A DNA stretch of 31,336 nt from Chloroflexota bacterium (GTDB lineage: Bacteria > Chloroflexota > Limnocylindria > Limnocylindrales > CSP1-4): positions 1 through 31,336 of the forward strand of contig JAJYXX010000263.1 of NCBI GenBank assembly GCA_021801545.1, in the 5' to 3' direction. Below the pieces are notes generated by a model. It had not been told where the DNA came from, searched no databases, and was given only the letters and a program-made list of their open reading frames with translations. Position numbers and translations under genes: made by a program. This document shows positions 10,481 through 15,447 of this stretch, in pieces. Position 1 is the stretch's first letter. Each line of letters opens with the position of its first letter.

Positions 10481-13400
10481 TCACGCCGCCGCCCACCCCT
10501 CCGACAGCACCTCCGCCTGCTCGAGGACCGTCAGCGTCGCCTTCTCCTGCTTGTCGGGCGGGTAGCCGTGCTTACGAAGGATGCGCTTGACGAGGACGCG
10601 CAGGTGGGCGCGGACGTTCTCGCGGACCGTCCAGTCGATCGTGACGTTGGCGCGGACGGACTCGGCCAGTTCGCGGGCGATCGCCCGCAGCTCCGGCTCG
10701 CCCAGCACCGCGACCGCGCTGTCGTTCGTCTCGAGGGCGTCGTAGAAGGCGATCTCGTCCTCGGACAGACCCAACGCCTCGCCGCGCGCATCGGCCGCCC
10801 GCATCTCGCGCGCGAGCTCGATGAGCTCCTCGATGACCTGCGCCGTCTCGATCGCCCGGTTCTGGTACTTGCGCAGGGCGTGCTCCAACAGCTCGGTGAA
10901 CGAGCGTGCCTCCACGACGTTCCGCCGTGAGCGGGTCCTGATCTCGCCCTTCAGGAGCTTCTCGAGGAGCTCGACCGCGAGGTTTCGCTGGGGCATCCCG
11001 CGGACCTCGGCGAGGAACTCGTCGGAGAGGATCGAGATGTCGGGCTTCTTGAGCCCGGCCGCGGCGAAGATGTCGATGACCTCGCCTGACGCGACCGCCC
11101 GACTGACGATCTGGCGGATCGCGTGGTCGAGGTCCTCGTCGGTTCGGCGTTCGCCGGGCGCGCTCTTCGCGAGGACCGCGCGCACCGCCTGGAAGAACCC
11201 GACGTCGTCGCGAATCCGAAGCGCCTCGTCGGCCGGGACGGCGAGAGCAAAGGCCTTCGACAGCTCGGTCACCGACCGCAGGAGCCGATCCTTCCCGTCC
11301 TCGAGCGCGAGGATGTGCTCCTGGGCGGCCGGCAACAGCGACAGCCGCTCCCCTGCCGTCCTGCTCACCCATCGCGACCAATCGAAGCCGTGGAAGAGCC
11401 CGAGGCAGACCTCGTACTTCTCGACCATGAGCGCGACCGCCTCGGCCTGGTCGATCGCCGTCTTCCCGGTGCCGCCGCTCTCGGTGTACGTCGCAAGCGC
11501 GCGCCGAAGCTCGTCCGCCAAACCCAGGTAGTCGACGACCAACCCGCCCGGCTTGTCCCGGAAGACCCGGTTCACCCGGGCGATCGTCTGCATCAGGCCG
11601 TGCCCGCGCATCGGCTTGTCCACGTACATCGTGTGGAGGCTCGGCGCGTCGAAGCCGGTGAGCCACATGTCCCGGACGATGACGATCCGGAACGGGTCCG
11701 CGGGATCGCGGAAGCGCCCGGCGAGCGCCTCGCGACGCGCCTTGTTCCGGATGTGGGGCTGCCAGTCGAGCGGATCCGAGGCCGAACCCGTCATGACGAC
11801 CTTGAGGACGCCGGCGTCGTCGGTCGCGGCGGTCCACTCCGGCCGGAGCGCGGCGATCTCGCGGTAGAGCTCGACCGCGATCCGCCGGCTCATCGTGACG
11901 ACCATCGCCTTGCCGTCCATCGCGGCAAGCCGGTCCTCGAAGTGATCGACGAGGTCGCGGGCGACGAGCCGGAGGCGGTGTTCGGAGCCGACGACCGCCT
12001 CGAGCTGCGCCCAGCGCGTCTTGAGCCGCTCCTTGCGCTCGATCTCCTCGCCCTCGGTCGCCTCCTCGAAGTCCGGGTCGATACGCGGGCGTTCGGACTC
12101 GAGCAATTCGAGCTTCGCGAGCCGGCTCTCGTAGAAGATCGGGACGGTCGCCCCGTCGGTGACGGCGCGGGCGATGTCGTAGACGCTGATGTACTCGCCG
12201 AAGACGGCGCGCGTGTTCGCGTCGGCCTGCTCGATCGGGGTGCCGGTGAAGCCGATGAACGAGGCGTGCGGCAGCGCGTCGCGCATGTGCCGGGCGAACC
12301 CGTCGATGAAGTCGTACTGGCTCCGGTGGGCCTCGTCGGCGATGACGACGATGTTCCGACGGCCCGAGAGGACCGGGTGCCGGTCGCCGGTCTCGCCAGG
12401 GAAGAACTTCTGGATCGTCGTGAAGACGACCCCGCCGGCGCCGACCCGGAGCTTCGAGCGGAGGTCGGCCCGATCCCGGGCCTGGACCGGCTCCTGGCGA
12501 AGGAGGTCGCTGCAGCGGGCGAAGGTCCCGAAGAGCTGGTCATCGAGGTCGTTGCGGTCGGTGAGGACGACGATCGTCGGGTTCTCCATCGCGGGCTCGA
12601 GGATGACCCGCCCGGCATAGAAGGCCATCGTCAGGCTCTTGCCGGAGCCCTGGGTGTGCCAGACGACGCCAACACGGCGGTCGCCGGGCTCCCCGCCGGG
12701 CTGCTCACCCGAGCCGTATCGGCCGGCGACCTCGCCGATCCGTCGCTCCCGCGCGGCACGCAGCGTCTCCTCGACCGCGACGTTCACGGCGTGGAACTGA
12801 TGGTAGCCCGCGATCTTCTTCGCGAGCTCGCCGCCGCCGAAGTCCTCGAAGACGACGAAGTGGCGCATGAGGTCGAGGAACCGGCGCCGTTCGAACACGC
12901 CCTCGAAGACGACCTGGAGCTCGGTCAGGCTCAGCGGGGCGTCCTCGCGGCCACCGATCGTCCGCCACGGCTTGAACCACTCGCGGCCCGCGCCGACGGC
13001 CCCGATGCGCGCCTGTGTCCCGTCCGAGGCGACGAGCGCGGCGTTGTACGTGAAGAGTCTCGGGATCTGCGCCTGGTACGTCTCGAGCTGACGGAACGCG
13101 GACCAGACGGTCGCGTTTTCGTCGGCGGGGTTCTTGAGCTCGATGGCCGCGAGCGGAAGGCCGTTCACGAAGAGGACCACGTCGGGTCGGCGGGTGTGCT
13201 GACCCTCGGCCACGGTGAACTGGTTCACCGCGAGCCAGTCGTTCGCCTCCGGGTCGTCGAAGTCGACGACCCGGACCTGCGCGCCGGCGATCGAGCCATC
13301 CGCGCGGCGGTGCTCCACGGTCACGCCATCGACGAGCATCCGGTGGAGGGCGTGGTTGCGCTCGAGCAGCGAGGGTGCGTCGGTCCGGGTCAGCTTGCGG

Positions 13401-13621
13401 AACGCGTCGTCGAGCGCTTCGGGCGGCACCGCGGGGTTGAGGCCCACGAGCGCCTGACGGAGCCGCCCCTCGAGAACGACGTCGCGATAGCTGGGATCGG
13501 TCCTCTCGGCCGCTGGTTCACCGACCGCGATATCTGGCCCGTGGAGCACCGAGTACCCGAGCGCCTCGAGCCAGGCGAGCGAGGCGTCCTCGACGACCGA
13601 CTCGGTGAAGTCGGCCGTCAT
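10481..13621 (-). CDS. hsdR: Type I restriction enzyme R subunit, 1046 aa
   Basis: PD...ELK nuclease motif ([18 protein letters not shown]), Walker [21 protein letters not shown]3387-like C-terminus. ATG 13621 overlaps the upstream stop. Confidence 0.97.
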
Positions 13622-15378
13622 CGCTCGTCTTCCGCGTGCCACAGGGTCATCGGATCCTCGGCGACACGCCGACCCCGTGTGCTTCTGGGAGGCTTGGGGA
13701 ACCGTGGCCCCGGACCGTACTCCACCGCCGGCCCGCGCTGCTGTGGCGACGTCTTGACGAGGATCCCGCGCCGAATCAGGTCGTCGAGCAGGTTGTTCGC
13801 CGGGTGAACGGTCAGGTCGAAGAGGTTCTGCACGGTTCGGTTCGTGACCTTGCCGTACTCGCGGACGTGGGCGATCACCTTCCGATCGGTCTCAGCGGCC
13901 GTGCGCTGCTGGTAGGTGACCGCGGGACCGAGGGCGGCGAGGGCGCTCCCGCCGAGCCTGTAGCCCTGCGATCCGCTGCGACGCCCCCGCGTTGGCTCGA
14001 CCATCGCCGGCGGGTCCACGGCCAGCCGCCGGAGGATCGTTTCGGCCTCTGTGGGACCTCGCTGCAGGATGGGAGCGATCTCGGGAGCGGTGACAGTTCG
14101 GTGGGAGCAGAGGTGGAAAAGGATGAGCAGCGCATCGGTGTCGTCTCGCTCGACGGACGGCAGCTGGGCGACATAGCGGGCAATGTGGGTGTTCGGTGCG
14201 CCCCCGACCAGCCGCACTGCCACCTGGTCGGCGGATGCTTCGATGATGGGAACTCCTCGGCCGGCTCGGATCATCGCAACGTACATCCGGTCGACGCCCC
14301 GGCCGTATTCCTCGCCGAAGCCCAGGATCCGCGCCGCGTTCGCGAGCGCGCGGTTTCGCGGCATTGGCGGGTGGGTGAGGATGTTCTCGGGCGTCACGCC
14401 GGAGACGAGCGGCCCGGGCGAGGTGACGCTCAGGACGGCCGGCGAGTGCTCGACGACGACAGGCCCCCGCAGCTGATGGTCCCGATGGACGATCCCGTTC
14501 GCGATCGACTCGCGAACGGCGAGCTCGGGGAAGTCCTGGAGCTGAATCTGCTGCCCATCAGGAAGCGTGAGCGGCGTGCTGTTCAGCCGCGCACGCACCA
14601 CCTCCATGACACGTGGGAAGGCGATCACCAGTGGGGTTTCGAGACGCTCGGACGCCGTCGGCTCGCCGCCCGGCGTGGGCCGGAACTGATAGGCGATTCG
14701 TGGATTTCCGGTTGCGGCCGCCGTCAGCAGGAACTCGCCGGCGTGGTTAAGCATCCCGTCCTCGAGCAGGCCGAGCAGGCGCAGGAGGTCGAGGTCACTG
14801 CGTTGAGCATGCTCCCGACGCTCGTCCGGCAGGCCGGCCAAGGTCGCCCTGAGTGTTGCCATCGCGAGAGGCGAGACCTCATCGGGCCGGCGATCCGAGC
14901 GCTTTGCGGACCAGTCCACGCCGAGGCGGTCTTCTCGGAGACGAGCGACCTCGGCCGGCGACATCGGCTGACAGTCGTCGTTGATCCGCCGGTACGCCCG
15001 GCTCTTGCTGTCCGCGTAGACCTCGATCCCCTCCGGGACGAGAACCACGAGGAGCCGGACCCCGAAGTACGTCTGGGCCTCGACCTCGACCAGCAGGTTC
15101 GGCTGGGTCGTCGCGTGGATCGTCTTGCGGAGGCGGTCAGGATCAAGTGCTGTGCCCATGAGTGCCGCCGGACCGGCCGTGCGGTCAGAAACGCCGACGA
15201 CGACGGTGCCGCCGATACCGTTCGCCAGGCAGATGGCAGCTTCGGCGATATCGCGCTCGGTCTCCTCGGGGGTTGCCTTCTCTCGCTTGAACTCCAGGAC
15301 ACGCGATTCGAAGCTGGCGGCGCGCTGGCCGGCATGGACCGCACCGAGGATCGTCGGGAGATCGGACAGCGTGGCCAC
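13618..15378 (-). CDS. Schlafen/AlbA_2 + RecG-C/HATPase_c_4-like + wHTH protein, 586 aa
   Basis: E24-x4-E29-F-K31 and ANGIGG.VVVGV.D Schlafen motifs; central [14 protein letters not shown]...SPG...RN..LA...E.GRG.DRM; C-terminal helix-turn-helix-like regions. Confidence 0.85.
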
Positions 15379-15384
15379 GGTCCG

Positions 15385-15447
15385 GAGTTTGACCGGAGTT
15401 TAGTAAGACGTCAATCGTGTCGGCGCTACTAAACTCCCGCCAAACTC
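15385..15447 (-). promoter_or_regulatory. Inverted-repeat operator (21-bp arms, 21-bp spacer) over a promoter for the Schlafen-hsdR unit
   Basis: Arms 15385-15405 and 15427-15447 match 19/21 as inverted repeats; each arm has two AAACTC units 11 bp apart. Minus-strand TTGACG at 15414-15409, with weak CAAACT 17 nt later and GTG 7 nt after that. Confidence 0.6.

What the first reader, a model, noticed from the sequence alone, without database searches (positions are those of the whole stretch)
10481..15447. Schlafen-domain gene in the PrrC position, coupled to hsdR: candidate RM-guard anticodon nuclease
Seen: the gene lies between hsdS and hsdR, its stop overlaps the hsdR start (ATGA 13618-13621), and it retains E24-x4-E29-x-K31. 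Established: this spacing matches the Schlafen RNase active site (SLFN11 E209/E214/K216), Schlafens cut tRNA, and the anticodon nuclease PrrC sits between hsdS and hsdR and fires when the RM enzyme is inhibited. Inference: a non-homologous functional analogue of PrrC with ATPase-like and wHTH sensor/regulator domains, co-produced with HsdR. Caveat: this domain architecture is common and often annotated as a transcription regulator.
Basis: partly seen in the sequence, partly recalled or inferred. Interest (0 to 1): 0.8.

Follow-up and report, generated by a model that had tools for sequence, protein, structure and literature searches.

The report
Self-regulated Schlafen gene riding restriction operon
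A gene for a Schlafen-type RNA-cutting defence protein with its own conserved on/off DNA switch sits directly in front of the DNA-cutting gene of a restriction system, but it is one of many interchangeable passenger genes in that slot and not a dedicated guard of the restriction enzyme.

Summary
The sequence facts mostly hold. A 586-aa gene (13618-15378, minus strand) has SLFN_AlbA_2, GHKL-ATPase and tandem wHTH domains. E24, E29, K31 and D65 are intact, and its stop overlaps the hsdR start (ATGA, 13618-13621). It does not directly follow hsdS: a complete type II CBASS operon with regulators (15608-21560) lies between.

It is a member of the described "Schlatpase-HTH" (pSlfn HisKinase-HTH) class. 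The PrrC-like guard reading is not supported as an obligate link, for four reasons:
- Most relatives at 44-57% identity stand alone.
- 49 of 400 other Chloroflexota genomes carry orthologous hsdR, but only one carries this gene.
- In 20 orthologous operons the hsdS-hsdR slot holds other defence cargo.
- In the closest relatives, other genes separate it from hsdR.

RM embedding is nevertheless non-random. There is one old clade plus two independent cases.

The new detail is a four-box inverted repeat, AGTTTG-N5-AGTTT(G/A), about 27 nt, then (C/T)AAACT-N5-CAAACT, just upstream of the start codon. It is conserved across the subfamily (54 of 78 upstream regions against 0 in shuffles) and occurs once in this genome. 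It is probably an autoregulatory operator. Here it would also govern hsdR.

This scan has noted Schlafen genes in type I RM operons in many other genomes. Verdict: new member of a known kind, moderate interest.

The parts
13618..15378 (-). Schlatpase-wHTH gene (586 aa): SLFN_AlbA_2 nuclease, GHKL ATPase and tandem winged-helix domains
   Evidence: Pfam matches. AF2 model with mean pLDDT 90. Foldseek match to PDB 3LMM over the full length and to mammalian SLFN N-domains. 795 homologues found.
14959..15309 (-). SLFN_AlbA_2 domain (residues 24-140) with E24, E29, K31 and D65
   Evidence: The alignment to SLFN11 pairs ESxxxEFK with E209/E214/K216 and GVSD65 with GVDD252. Conservation in 55 homologues: E24 55/55, position 29 E/D 55/55, K31 55/55, D65 44/55 with N in 11.
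14194..14571 (-). GHKL (HATPase_c_4, PF13749) ATPase-like domain, about residues 270-395
   Evidence: E290, N294, S320-P321-G322, R341-N342 and E356-E357-x-G-x-G-x-D363-R364 are invariant in 55 homologues. Foldseek matches histidine-kinase catalytic domains.
13711..14139 (-). Two winged-helix domains (residues 414-475 and 494-556), followed by a disordered tail (567-586)
   Evidence: AF2 secondary structure. Weak profile matches to eS25 winged helix. Foldseek matches to ScpB, ESCRT-II and cullin winged-helix domains.
15385..15447 (.). Four-box inverted repeat, a putative autoregulatory operator: arms 15385-15405 and 15427-15447, each with two AGTTT(G/A) boxes 11 bp apart. It ends 7 nt from the GTG start.
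   Evidence: 2 matches against 0 expected. It is the only site in the 2.47-Mb assembly. It is conserved upstream of homologues in 54 of 78 regions against 0 in shuffles, with an inter-arm gap of 27-29 nt. Boxes are 88% identical between arms, spacers 47%.
13618..13621 (-). ATGA overlap of the SLFN stop and the hsdR start (translational coupling)
   Evidence: The L005-L009 orthologues also have adjacent or overlapping coordinates.
10481..13621 (-). hsdR, type I restriction subunit (1046 aa), intact
   Evidence: Pfam HSDR_N, SWI2_SNF2, T1R_D3 and T1RH-like_C. PADLOC REase_I 1086 bits. TIGR00348.
15608..21560 (-). Context: type II CBASS (SAVED-endonuclease, CD-NTase, Cap2, Cap3) plus a CapP-like peptidase region, filling the rest of the hsdS-hsdR slot
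21616..26060 (-). Context: hsdM (24498-26060), two MntA/HepT toxin-antitoxin pairs (23209-24501) and hsdS (21616-23067)

Best explanation
The gene is a self-contained, self-regulated single-gene defence cassette of the prokaryotic Schlafen 'Schlatpase-HTH' class. It has lodged as cargo in the hypervariable hsdS-hsdR slot of a type I RM operon.

Shown here:
- The nuclease motif and GHKL motifs are intact, and there is a tandem wHTH.
- A conserved four-box operator sits at its own start codon and travels with the gene whatever its neighbours.
- The slot holds unrelated defence cargo in orthologous operons.

Inferred:
- The protein binds the four boxes through its wHTH domains, probably as a GHKL-driven dimer of dimers or a tetramer, and represses its own promoter.
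- On an unknown infection cue, ATP-dependent oligomerisation assembles the SLFN active site, which cleaves tRNA and arrests translation.
- Because CBASS has cut hsdR off from hsdMS and hsdR is translationally coupled to this gene, the same operator and promoter most likely also set HsdR expression in this genome. This would be a by-product of embedding, not a dedicated guard circuit.
For: - Domains and motifs.
- Class membership and mechanism by homology: PMC13056530 reports the Ex4(E/D)xK motif, HisKinase-HTH fusions as 19% of pSlfns, and tRNA cleavage by RorSlfn5. bioRxiv 10.64898/2026.05.29.728809 defines the SLFN+PF13749 'Schlatpase' and reports ATP-driven tetramerisation that builds the nuclease, tRNA cleavage, and Schlatpase stand-alone or fused to HsdS in RM operons.
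- Operator. It is present upstream of stand-alone relatives too (for example L047, L050, L053, L110), so it belongs to the gene and not to the RM operon.
- Autonomy: relatives at 44-57% identity sit in unrelated contexts.
- hsdR orthologues are in 49 of 400 other genomes, against the SLFN orthologue in 1.
- 0 of 20 orthologous operons carry it, and their slots hold AAA_21/AAA_15, AAA_14-DUF4143, Fic, TIR_2, SIR2_2, GmrSD_N, UvrD, RhuM and Abi_C genes.
- Recombination scars (hsdR 5' and hsdM 3' fragment duplications) flank swapped cargo.
Against: - No experiment exists on this class. The HisKinase-type pSlfns tested in E. coli were not among the two systems that gave defence (PMC13056530).
- Binding of the protein to the boxes is inferred only from co-inheritance.
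- The palindrome would also fold as RNA (-41 kcal/mol, z -3.7).
- No sigma-70 consensus promoter was found by the simple scan.
- RM embedding recurs independently, including re-occupation of the same RM family by a different SLFN clade (L043/L044). SLFN-hsdR coupling appears ancestral in the clade. Both leave room for a functional tie to the RM enzyme.
Confidence: 0.6

Rival explanations
1. PrrC-like RM guard. The Schlafen protein is held latent by physical association with the type I enzyme (co-produced with HsdR). It fires as a tRNase when a phage anti-restriction protein (Ocr, ArdA or Stp-like) disables the enzyme.
For: - It sits in the PrrC slot, with an ATGA overlap to hsdR.
- Coupling appears to be retained in the L005-L009 orthologues, which have adjacent or overlapping coordinates.
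- The RM-embedded clade is old: SLFN identity is 65-97% with hsdR about 80%.
- There are two further independent RM associations (L043/L044 and L061/L079).
- A Schlatpase-HsdS fusion has been published in Poribacteria.
- Many earlier notes of this scan place Schlafen genes in type I RM operons (leads only).
Against: - PrrC is almost exclusively RM-embedded (10.1101/2024.01.29.577857). This subfamily is mostly stand-alone.
- 48 of the 49 other genomes with orthologous hsdR have no SLFN orthologue.
- The closest relatives (93-97% identity) have RhuM, AAA_14-DUF4143 or an hsdR fragment between SLFN and hsdR. Others have the gene next to hsdM.
- The gene has its own operator and promoter, independent of the RM operon.
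- It has no homology to PrrC.
Confidence: 0.12
2. Pure controller. The protein is mainly a transcription regulator, analogous to a C-protein. Through the four-box operator it times or limits hsdR expression after horizontal transfer. The SLFN domain serves nucleic-acid binding, not catalysis.
For: - The conserved operator overlaps the start region.
- hsdR has no separate promoter in view and is translationally coupled.
- In L061 the SLFN gene lies directly upstream of hsdM, and in L079 about 70 nt upstream.
- Databases name the family 'transcriptional regulator'.
Against: - The same operator is found at stand-alone genes with no downstream RM gene, often with a convergent neighbour. Autoregulation is therefore the conserved role.
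- Catalytic E24, E/D29 and K31 and the GHKL ATP-binding motifs are invariant across 55 homologues. A mere DNA-binding scaffold does not explain this.
- Related Schlatpase modules are active tRNases.
Confidence: 0.13
3. The inverted repeat is an RNA element, either a 5' hairpin occluding the start codon or a terminator of the upstream cap3 transcript, and not a protein-binding operator. The gene is then simply read through from upstream.
For: The predicted hairpin is -41 kcal/mol with z -3.7. The arms are 90% complementary.
Against: - Box sequences themselves are conserved (positions 75-100% identical). The 5-nt spacers inside the arms are only 47% symmetric, against 88% for the boxes.
- Spacings of 11 bp and about 33 bp place all boxes on one DNA face.
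- There is no U-tract and no Rfam match.
- The element accompanies the gene in many unrelated upstream contexts.
Confidence: 0.08

Closest known systems
Prokaryotic Schlafen 'HisKinase-HTH' class (Perez Taboada et al. 2026, PMC13056530), also called Schlatpase-HTH proteins (bioRxiv 10.64898/2026.05.29.728809)
   Same: Same architecture: PF04326 + PF13749 + C-terminal HTH. Same Ex4(E/D)xK motif. Same defence-island context. Schlatpase has already been reported stand-alone or fused to HsdS inside type I RM operons.
   Different: This class has not been characterised experimentally. The conserved four-box operator at the gene's own start, and its consequence of putting a coupled hsdR under the same control, were not described in the papers I read.
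PrrC / EcoprrI anticodon nuclease guard
   Same: A tRNA-targeting-type nuclease gene in the hsdS-hsdR slot of a type I RM operon, plausibly co-expressed with the RM enzyme.
   Different: There is no homology: PrrC is an ABC ATPase plus a HEPN-like nuclease. PrrC is almost exclusively RM-embedded, whereas this subfamily is mostly stand-alone. Masking by the RM enzyme and activation by anti-restriction proteins are untested here.
PDB 3LMM (DIP2311, Corynebacterium diphtheriae), an uncharacterised structural-genomics protein
   Same: A full-length structural and sequence homologue (profile E 7.9e-57, Foldseek E 9e-36, about 25% identity) with the same domain order.
   Different: No function has been assigned, and it belongs to a different subfamily.
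RM controller (C) proteins
   Same: The gene lies directly upstream of, and overlapping, the restriction gene. A multi-site palindromic operator sits at its own promoter.
   Different: C-proteins are Xre-type HTH dimers of about 80-100 aa with no enzymatic domains. Here there is a 586-aa nuclease-ATPase with tandem wHTH, and the operator is also present at stand-alone copies.
'Guilt-by-embedding' cargo of type I RM, BREX and DISARM (Payne et al. preprint 10.1101/2024.01.29.577857)
   Same: Defence genes nested inside RM operons. Here the same operon also nests CBASS and two MntA/HepT pairs, and orthologous operons nest many other defence genes.
   Different: That study does not mention Schlafen or AlbA_2 in its main text.

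Membership tests
Prokaryotic Schlafen / Schlatpase-HTH | SLFN_AlbA_2 (PF04326) domain above the curated cut-off | tested here: met
   57.7 bits against a cut-off of 25.3, residues 24-140. Whole-genome family search gives 61.9 bits.
Prokaryotic Schlafen / Schlatpase-HTH | Catalytic Ex4(E/D)xK motif plus the third acidic residue (SLFN11 E209, E214, K216, D252) | tested here: met
   E24, E29, K31 and D65, from the alignment to SLFN11, SLFN13 and other Schlafen chains and conservation counts.
Prokaryotic Schlafen / Schlatpase-HTH | GHKL ATPase domain PF13749 directly after the SLFN domain | tested here: met
   44.5 bits against 26. E290/N294 and the glycine-rich motifs are invariant. Fold matches to histidine-kinase catalytic domains.
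Prokaryotic Schlafen / Schlatpase-HTH | C-terminal HTH or winged-helix domain | tested here: met
   The AF2 model shows two winged-helix units, 414-475 and 494-556. Foldseek matches ScpB and other winged-helix domains. Pfam gives only a weak DUF5635 hit.
Prokaryotic Schlafen / Schlatpase-HTH | tRNA cleavage and anti-phage protection | not testable with these tools
   Needs biochemistry and phage assays. No RNA-seq run holds the locus.
PrrC-like RM-guard anticodon nuclease | Homology to PrrC (ABC ATPase N-domain plus C-terminal anticodon nuclease) | tested here: not met
   Pfam, NCBIfam and PADLOC give no PrrC or ABC-ATPase match for this protein.
PrrC-like RM-guard anticodon nuclease | Near-exclusive embedding of the family in type I RM operons | tested here: not met
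   Among 85 subfamily sequences there is one RM-embedded clade of 22 and three further RM-linked sequences representing two additional independent cases. The rest are in unrelated contexts (also 37-39).
PrrC-like RM-guard anticodon nuclease | Position between hsdS and hsdR | tested here: inconclusive
   The gene is directly upstream of hsdR, but about 6 kb of CBASS separates it from hsdS. In relatives it is followed by RhuM, AAA_14 or DUF3800 genes, or lies next to hsdM.
PrrC-like RM-guard anticodon nuclease | Latency imposed by the RM enzyme and activation by anti-restriction factors | not testable with these tools
RM controller (C) protein | Small Xre-type HTH protein | tested here: not met
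   586 aa with nuclease, ATPase and wHTH domains.
RM controller (C) protein | Palindromic operator at its own promoter, with the restriction gene immediately downstream | tested here: met
   Four-box inverted repeat at 15385-15447 and the ATGA overlap with hsdR. Binding itself was not tested.

The most novel reading that the evidence does not exclude
The protein is a combined controller and guard. As an ATP-switched tetramer it sits on the four-box operator and holds down both itself and HsdR. When infection or an anti-restriction protein perturbs the RM complex, or titrates the wHTH domains, it leaves the operator, boosts HsdR and assembles its Schlafen tRNase. Restriction and abortive infection would then be wired through one protein.
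Probability: 0.1. Interest if true: 0.75.

Novelty: new member of a known kind. Interest (0 to 1): 0.35.

Why it matters
The Schlatpase-HTH class is the largest group of bacterial Schlafens. The SLFN-GHKL pair is found in 58.6% of about 103,000 prokaryotic SLFN proteins (bioRxiv 10.64898/2026.05.29.728809), yet no member of this class has a demonstrated trigger or regulation.

The conserved operator gives a concrete, cheap experiment (footprinting, reporter assays) and a first function for the C-terminal wHTH domains.

The comparative data also temper a tempting idea: position in the 'PrrC slot' alone does not indicate a guard. In this RM family the slot is a recombination-driven cargo bay that is always occupied by something.

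Tried and rejected
- PADLOC and NCBIfam gave no named system for the protein. There were only weak PADLOC hits of residues 272-330 to pAgo-associated models.
- The genome-contig scan with the single protein returned only 9 loci. The metagenome scan with an alignment gave the 80 loci used.
- tblastn with this window's hsd proteins may miss other type I families. I therefore also tallied Pfam families of 46 downstream neighbours and found no HsdR.
- The simple promoter and terminator scan found nothing in 13400-15800.
- Rfam found nothing in 10400-15700.
- No RNA run holds the locus, so transcription starts could not be read, and read laying was not used.
- The 31%-identical paralogue on contig C436 has no such operator, so the operator is specific to this subfamily.
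- Residue-box co-variation is phylogenetically confounded and I treat it as weak. The ACTTTG-box clade carries N518R, P550K and E553K, but it also carries many changes in the GHKL domain.
- Makarova 2011 (PMC3194920) is not held in the library.
- Supplementary tables of PMC13056530 are not held, so the published neighbourhood statistics by class could not be read.

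
Full report
**What is there**

The window is about 68% G+C and comes from a 76%-complete Chloroflexota metagenome-assembled genome. The closest loci are Chloroflexota MAGs, and DNA runs from mine drainage and sediment hold it. The minus strand carries a type I RM operon whose gene gaps are all occupied, in this order:
- hsdM (24498-26060)
- two MntA/HepT toxin-antitoxin pairs (23209-24501)
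- hsdS (21616-23067)
- a CapP-like peptidase region (20901-21542, plus strand)
- a complete type II CBASS: SAVED-endonuclease 18998-21046, CD-NTase 17873-18988, Cap2 16105-17946, Cap3 15608-16108
- a 229-nt intergenic region
- the gene of interest (13618-15378)
- hsdR (10481-13621)

The ATGA overlap at 13618-13621 is real, and so are E24, E29 and K31. The phrase "between hsdS and hsdR" is true only loosely. The direct upstream neighbour is cap3.

**The protein**

Pfam gives SLFN_AlbA_2 (residues 24-140) and HATPase_c_4. An AlphaFold2 model built on 55 homologues is confident (mean pLDDT 90). It shows the SLFN domain, a helical linker, a GHKL domain (about 270-395), two winged-helix units (414-475 and 494-556) and a disordered tail.

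Foldseek finds the uncharacterised structure 3LMM over the whole length. It also matches the mammalian SLFN5, 11, 12, 13 and 14 nuclease domains, histidine-kinase catalytic domains and ScpB-like tandem winged helices. A profile search agrees.

The alignment to SLFN11 pairs E24/E29/K31 with E209/E214/K216 and D65 with D252. Conservation in 55 homologues:
- E24 and K31 are invariant.
- Position 29 is always E or D.
- D65 is D in 44 and N in 11.
- The GHKL N-box (E290, N294) and glycine-rich motifs are invariant.

This is the published pSlfn "HisKinase-HTH" architecture. That work reports the Ex4(E/D)xK motif and that 19% of 5,930 pSlfns have this architecture (PMC13056530). It is also the "Schlatpase" supradomain with a C-terminal HTH (bioRxiv 10.64898/2026.05.29.728809). 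[quoted passage not shown] The same preprint already reports Schlatpase modules stand-alone or fused to HsdS inside type I RM operons. The class itself remains untested. The HisKinase-type genes tried in E. coli were not among the two systems that protected.

**Is it tied to hsdR?**

I collected 9 genome loci, 80 metagenome loci, 14 places in 400 other Chloroflexota species genomes and 3 long contigs.

All relatives at 65% identity or more that have enough flank lie in one family of type I operons (hsdM 72-93% identical, hsdR about 60-86% over the parts seen). They form one clade (SH-aLRT 100). It has 22 rows: 19 with hsd genes in view and 3 on short contigs.

The position inside the operon is not fixed:
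- Adjacent to or overlapping hsdR, judged from alignment coordinates, in L005-L009 (exact overlap shown only for the window).
- Followed by RhuM/Fic, RhuM plus AAA_14-DUF4143, or DUF3800 before hsdR in the 72-97% identical relatives.
- Next to hsdM, followed by a duplicated hsdM 3' fragment, in L004, L041 and L042.

In L031 (97% identical) the gene is followed by a 182-aa hsdR 5' fragment, then RhuM, then the full hsdR. The SLFN-hsdR junction is therefore ancestral, and later cargo entered by recombination that duplicated the hsdR 5' end.

Two further RM links are independent. L043/L044 carry an SLFN from another clade (55% identity) in the same RM family. L061/L079 have it upstream of a different hsdM.

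Against this, about 55 other relatives at 44-57% identity lie in unrelated contexts, often with a convergent neighbour. A Pfam tally of 46 downstream genes shows no HsdR, and only a DpnII-type REase, a DUF1156 protein and one RhuM/Fic gene. Three long contigs show housekeeping neighbours.

Seen from the RM side, 49 of 400 other Chloroflexota genomes carry an orthologous hsdR, but only one carries the SLFN orthologue. In 20 fetched orthologous operons the hsdM-hsdS-gap-hsdR order is kept in the 19 where hsdS lay within the fetched 7.3 kb. The hsdS-hsdR gap is never empty (0.7 to over 7 kb). It holds AAA_21/AAA_15, AAA_14-DUF4143, Fic, TIR_2, SIR2_2, DUF4917, GmrSD_N, UvrD, RhuM, Abi_C and other genes, and none is this SLFN.

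PrrC, by contrast, is "almost exclusively" RM-embedded (10.1101/2024.01.29.577857). Embedding of this subfamily is well above chance and recurrent, but it is facultative on both sides. That is the pattern of swappable defence cargo, not of a dedicated guard.

**The operator**

Seven nucleotides upstream of the GTG lies a 63-nt inverted repeat (15385-15447). Each 21-nt arm holds two AGTTT(G/A) boxes 11 bp apart. The tandem-box pattern occurs nowhere else in the window (0 expected) or in the 2.47-Mb assembly.

The same layout precedes the start codon across the subfamily, RM-embedded or not: AGTTTG-N5-AGTTT(G/A), 27-29 nt, then (C/T)AAACT-N5-CAAACT. Of 78 distinct upstream regions, 54 score at least 20 of 24 box positions, against 0 in five shuffles.

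Box positions are 75-100% conserved and 88% identical between arms. The 5-nt spacers are free (47% symmetric). One clade has switched both arms to ACTTTG/CAAAGT. Box spacings of 11 bp and about 33 bp put all four boxes on one face of the helix.

This pattern favours a protein operator over an RNA stem. A hairpin is thermodynamically possible, and no Rfam family matches.

No other gene is conserved beside the element, so the most economical binder is the protein's own wHTH. Four boxes fit the tetramer described for the Schlatpase module. Both points are inference.

In this window a TTGACG lies in the spacer, and the outer right box (CAAACT) lies 17 nt downstream of it. This suggests a promoter covered by the boxes and a near-leaderless transcript. 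That is my reading of the sequence and is not supported by the consensus scan.

**Consequence here**

CBASS separates hsdR from hsdMS, and hsdR is translationally coupled to the SLFN gene. HsdR expression in this genome therefore most likely depends on the SLFN promoter and operator. That resembles an RM controller protein. But the operator is equally present at stand-alone copies, so autoregulation is the conserved function and control of hsdR is a local by-product.

**Verdict**

It is a Schlafen defence nuclease in the PrrC slot and is co-expressed with HsdR. It is not supported as a PrrC-like guard.
- It is a new member of a known kind.
- This scan has already noted Schlafen genes inside type I RM operons in many other genomes (unverified notes).
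- The family-wide operator is the one detail I did not find in the papers I read.

Noticed in passing
window 23209-24501 (minus strand): Two tandem MntA/HepT (NTP_transf_2 plus HepT-like) toxin-antitoxin pairs fill the hsdM-hsdS gap. The same kind of pair follows the SLFN gene in L004 and precedes hsdS in L036.
   Followed up: partly
L031:6494-7039, L118:4062-4772, L123:5486-6331; L004:2176-2727, L041:1986-2417, L042:2213-2569: Duplicated hsdR 5' fragments and hsdM 3' fragments flank swapped cargo in orthologous operons. They look like scars of cassette exchange by homologous recombination between conserved hsd genes.
   Followed up: partly
L114-L133 (hsdR-upstream regions of 20 Chloroflexota genomes): In this RM family the hsdS-hsdR gap is never empty (0.7 to over 7 kb). 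It holds very diverse defence-type genes: ABC ATPases, TIR, SIR2, GmrSD, Fic, RhuM, Abi_C, UvrD and DUF4917.
   Followed up: partly
L043/L044: The same RM family (hsdM 92-94% identical, hsdR 85%) carries an SLFN from a different clade (55% identity) in the same slot. The slot has been re-occupied by a second allele.
   Followed up: partly
L099, L100, L103-L105, L107: One clade has ACTTTG/CAAAGT boxes in both arms. Its proteins carry N518R, P550K and E553K in the second winged helix. They also have substitutions at otherwise invariant GHKL positions (N342Y, E357Y, D363N), so ATP binding may be lost.
   Followed up: partly
window 4809-9589 (minus strand): An SbcD/Mre11-like phosphoesterase (8135-9589) and an AAA_27 SMC-like ATPase (4809-8132) lie directly downstream of hsdR in the same island. 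PADLOC gives only marginal hits.
   Followed up: no
window 3059-3697 (minus strand): A RES-domain toxin gene. Its partner antitoxin was not examined.
   Followed up: no
P0001 residues 272-330: Weak PADLOC matches to SIR2-APAZ and pAgo models (E 1e-7 to 6e-5). This is consistent with the GHKL/Schlatpase module being shared with Argonaute-associated defence proteins.
   Followed up: no
G000 contigs C436, C294 and C53: There are three further SLFN_AlbA_2 genes in the same genome (31% identical or less). The C436 copy lacks the four-box operator and abuts an upstream gene.
   Followed up: partly
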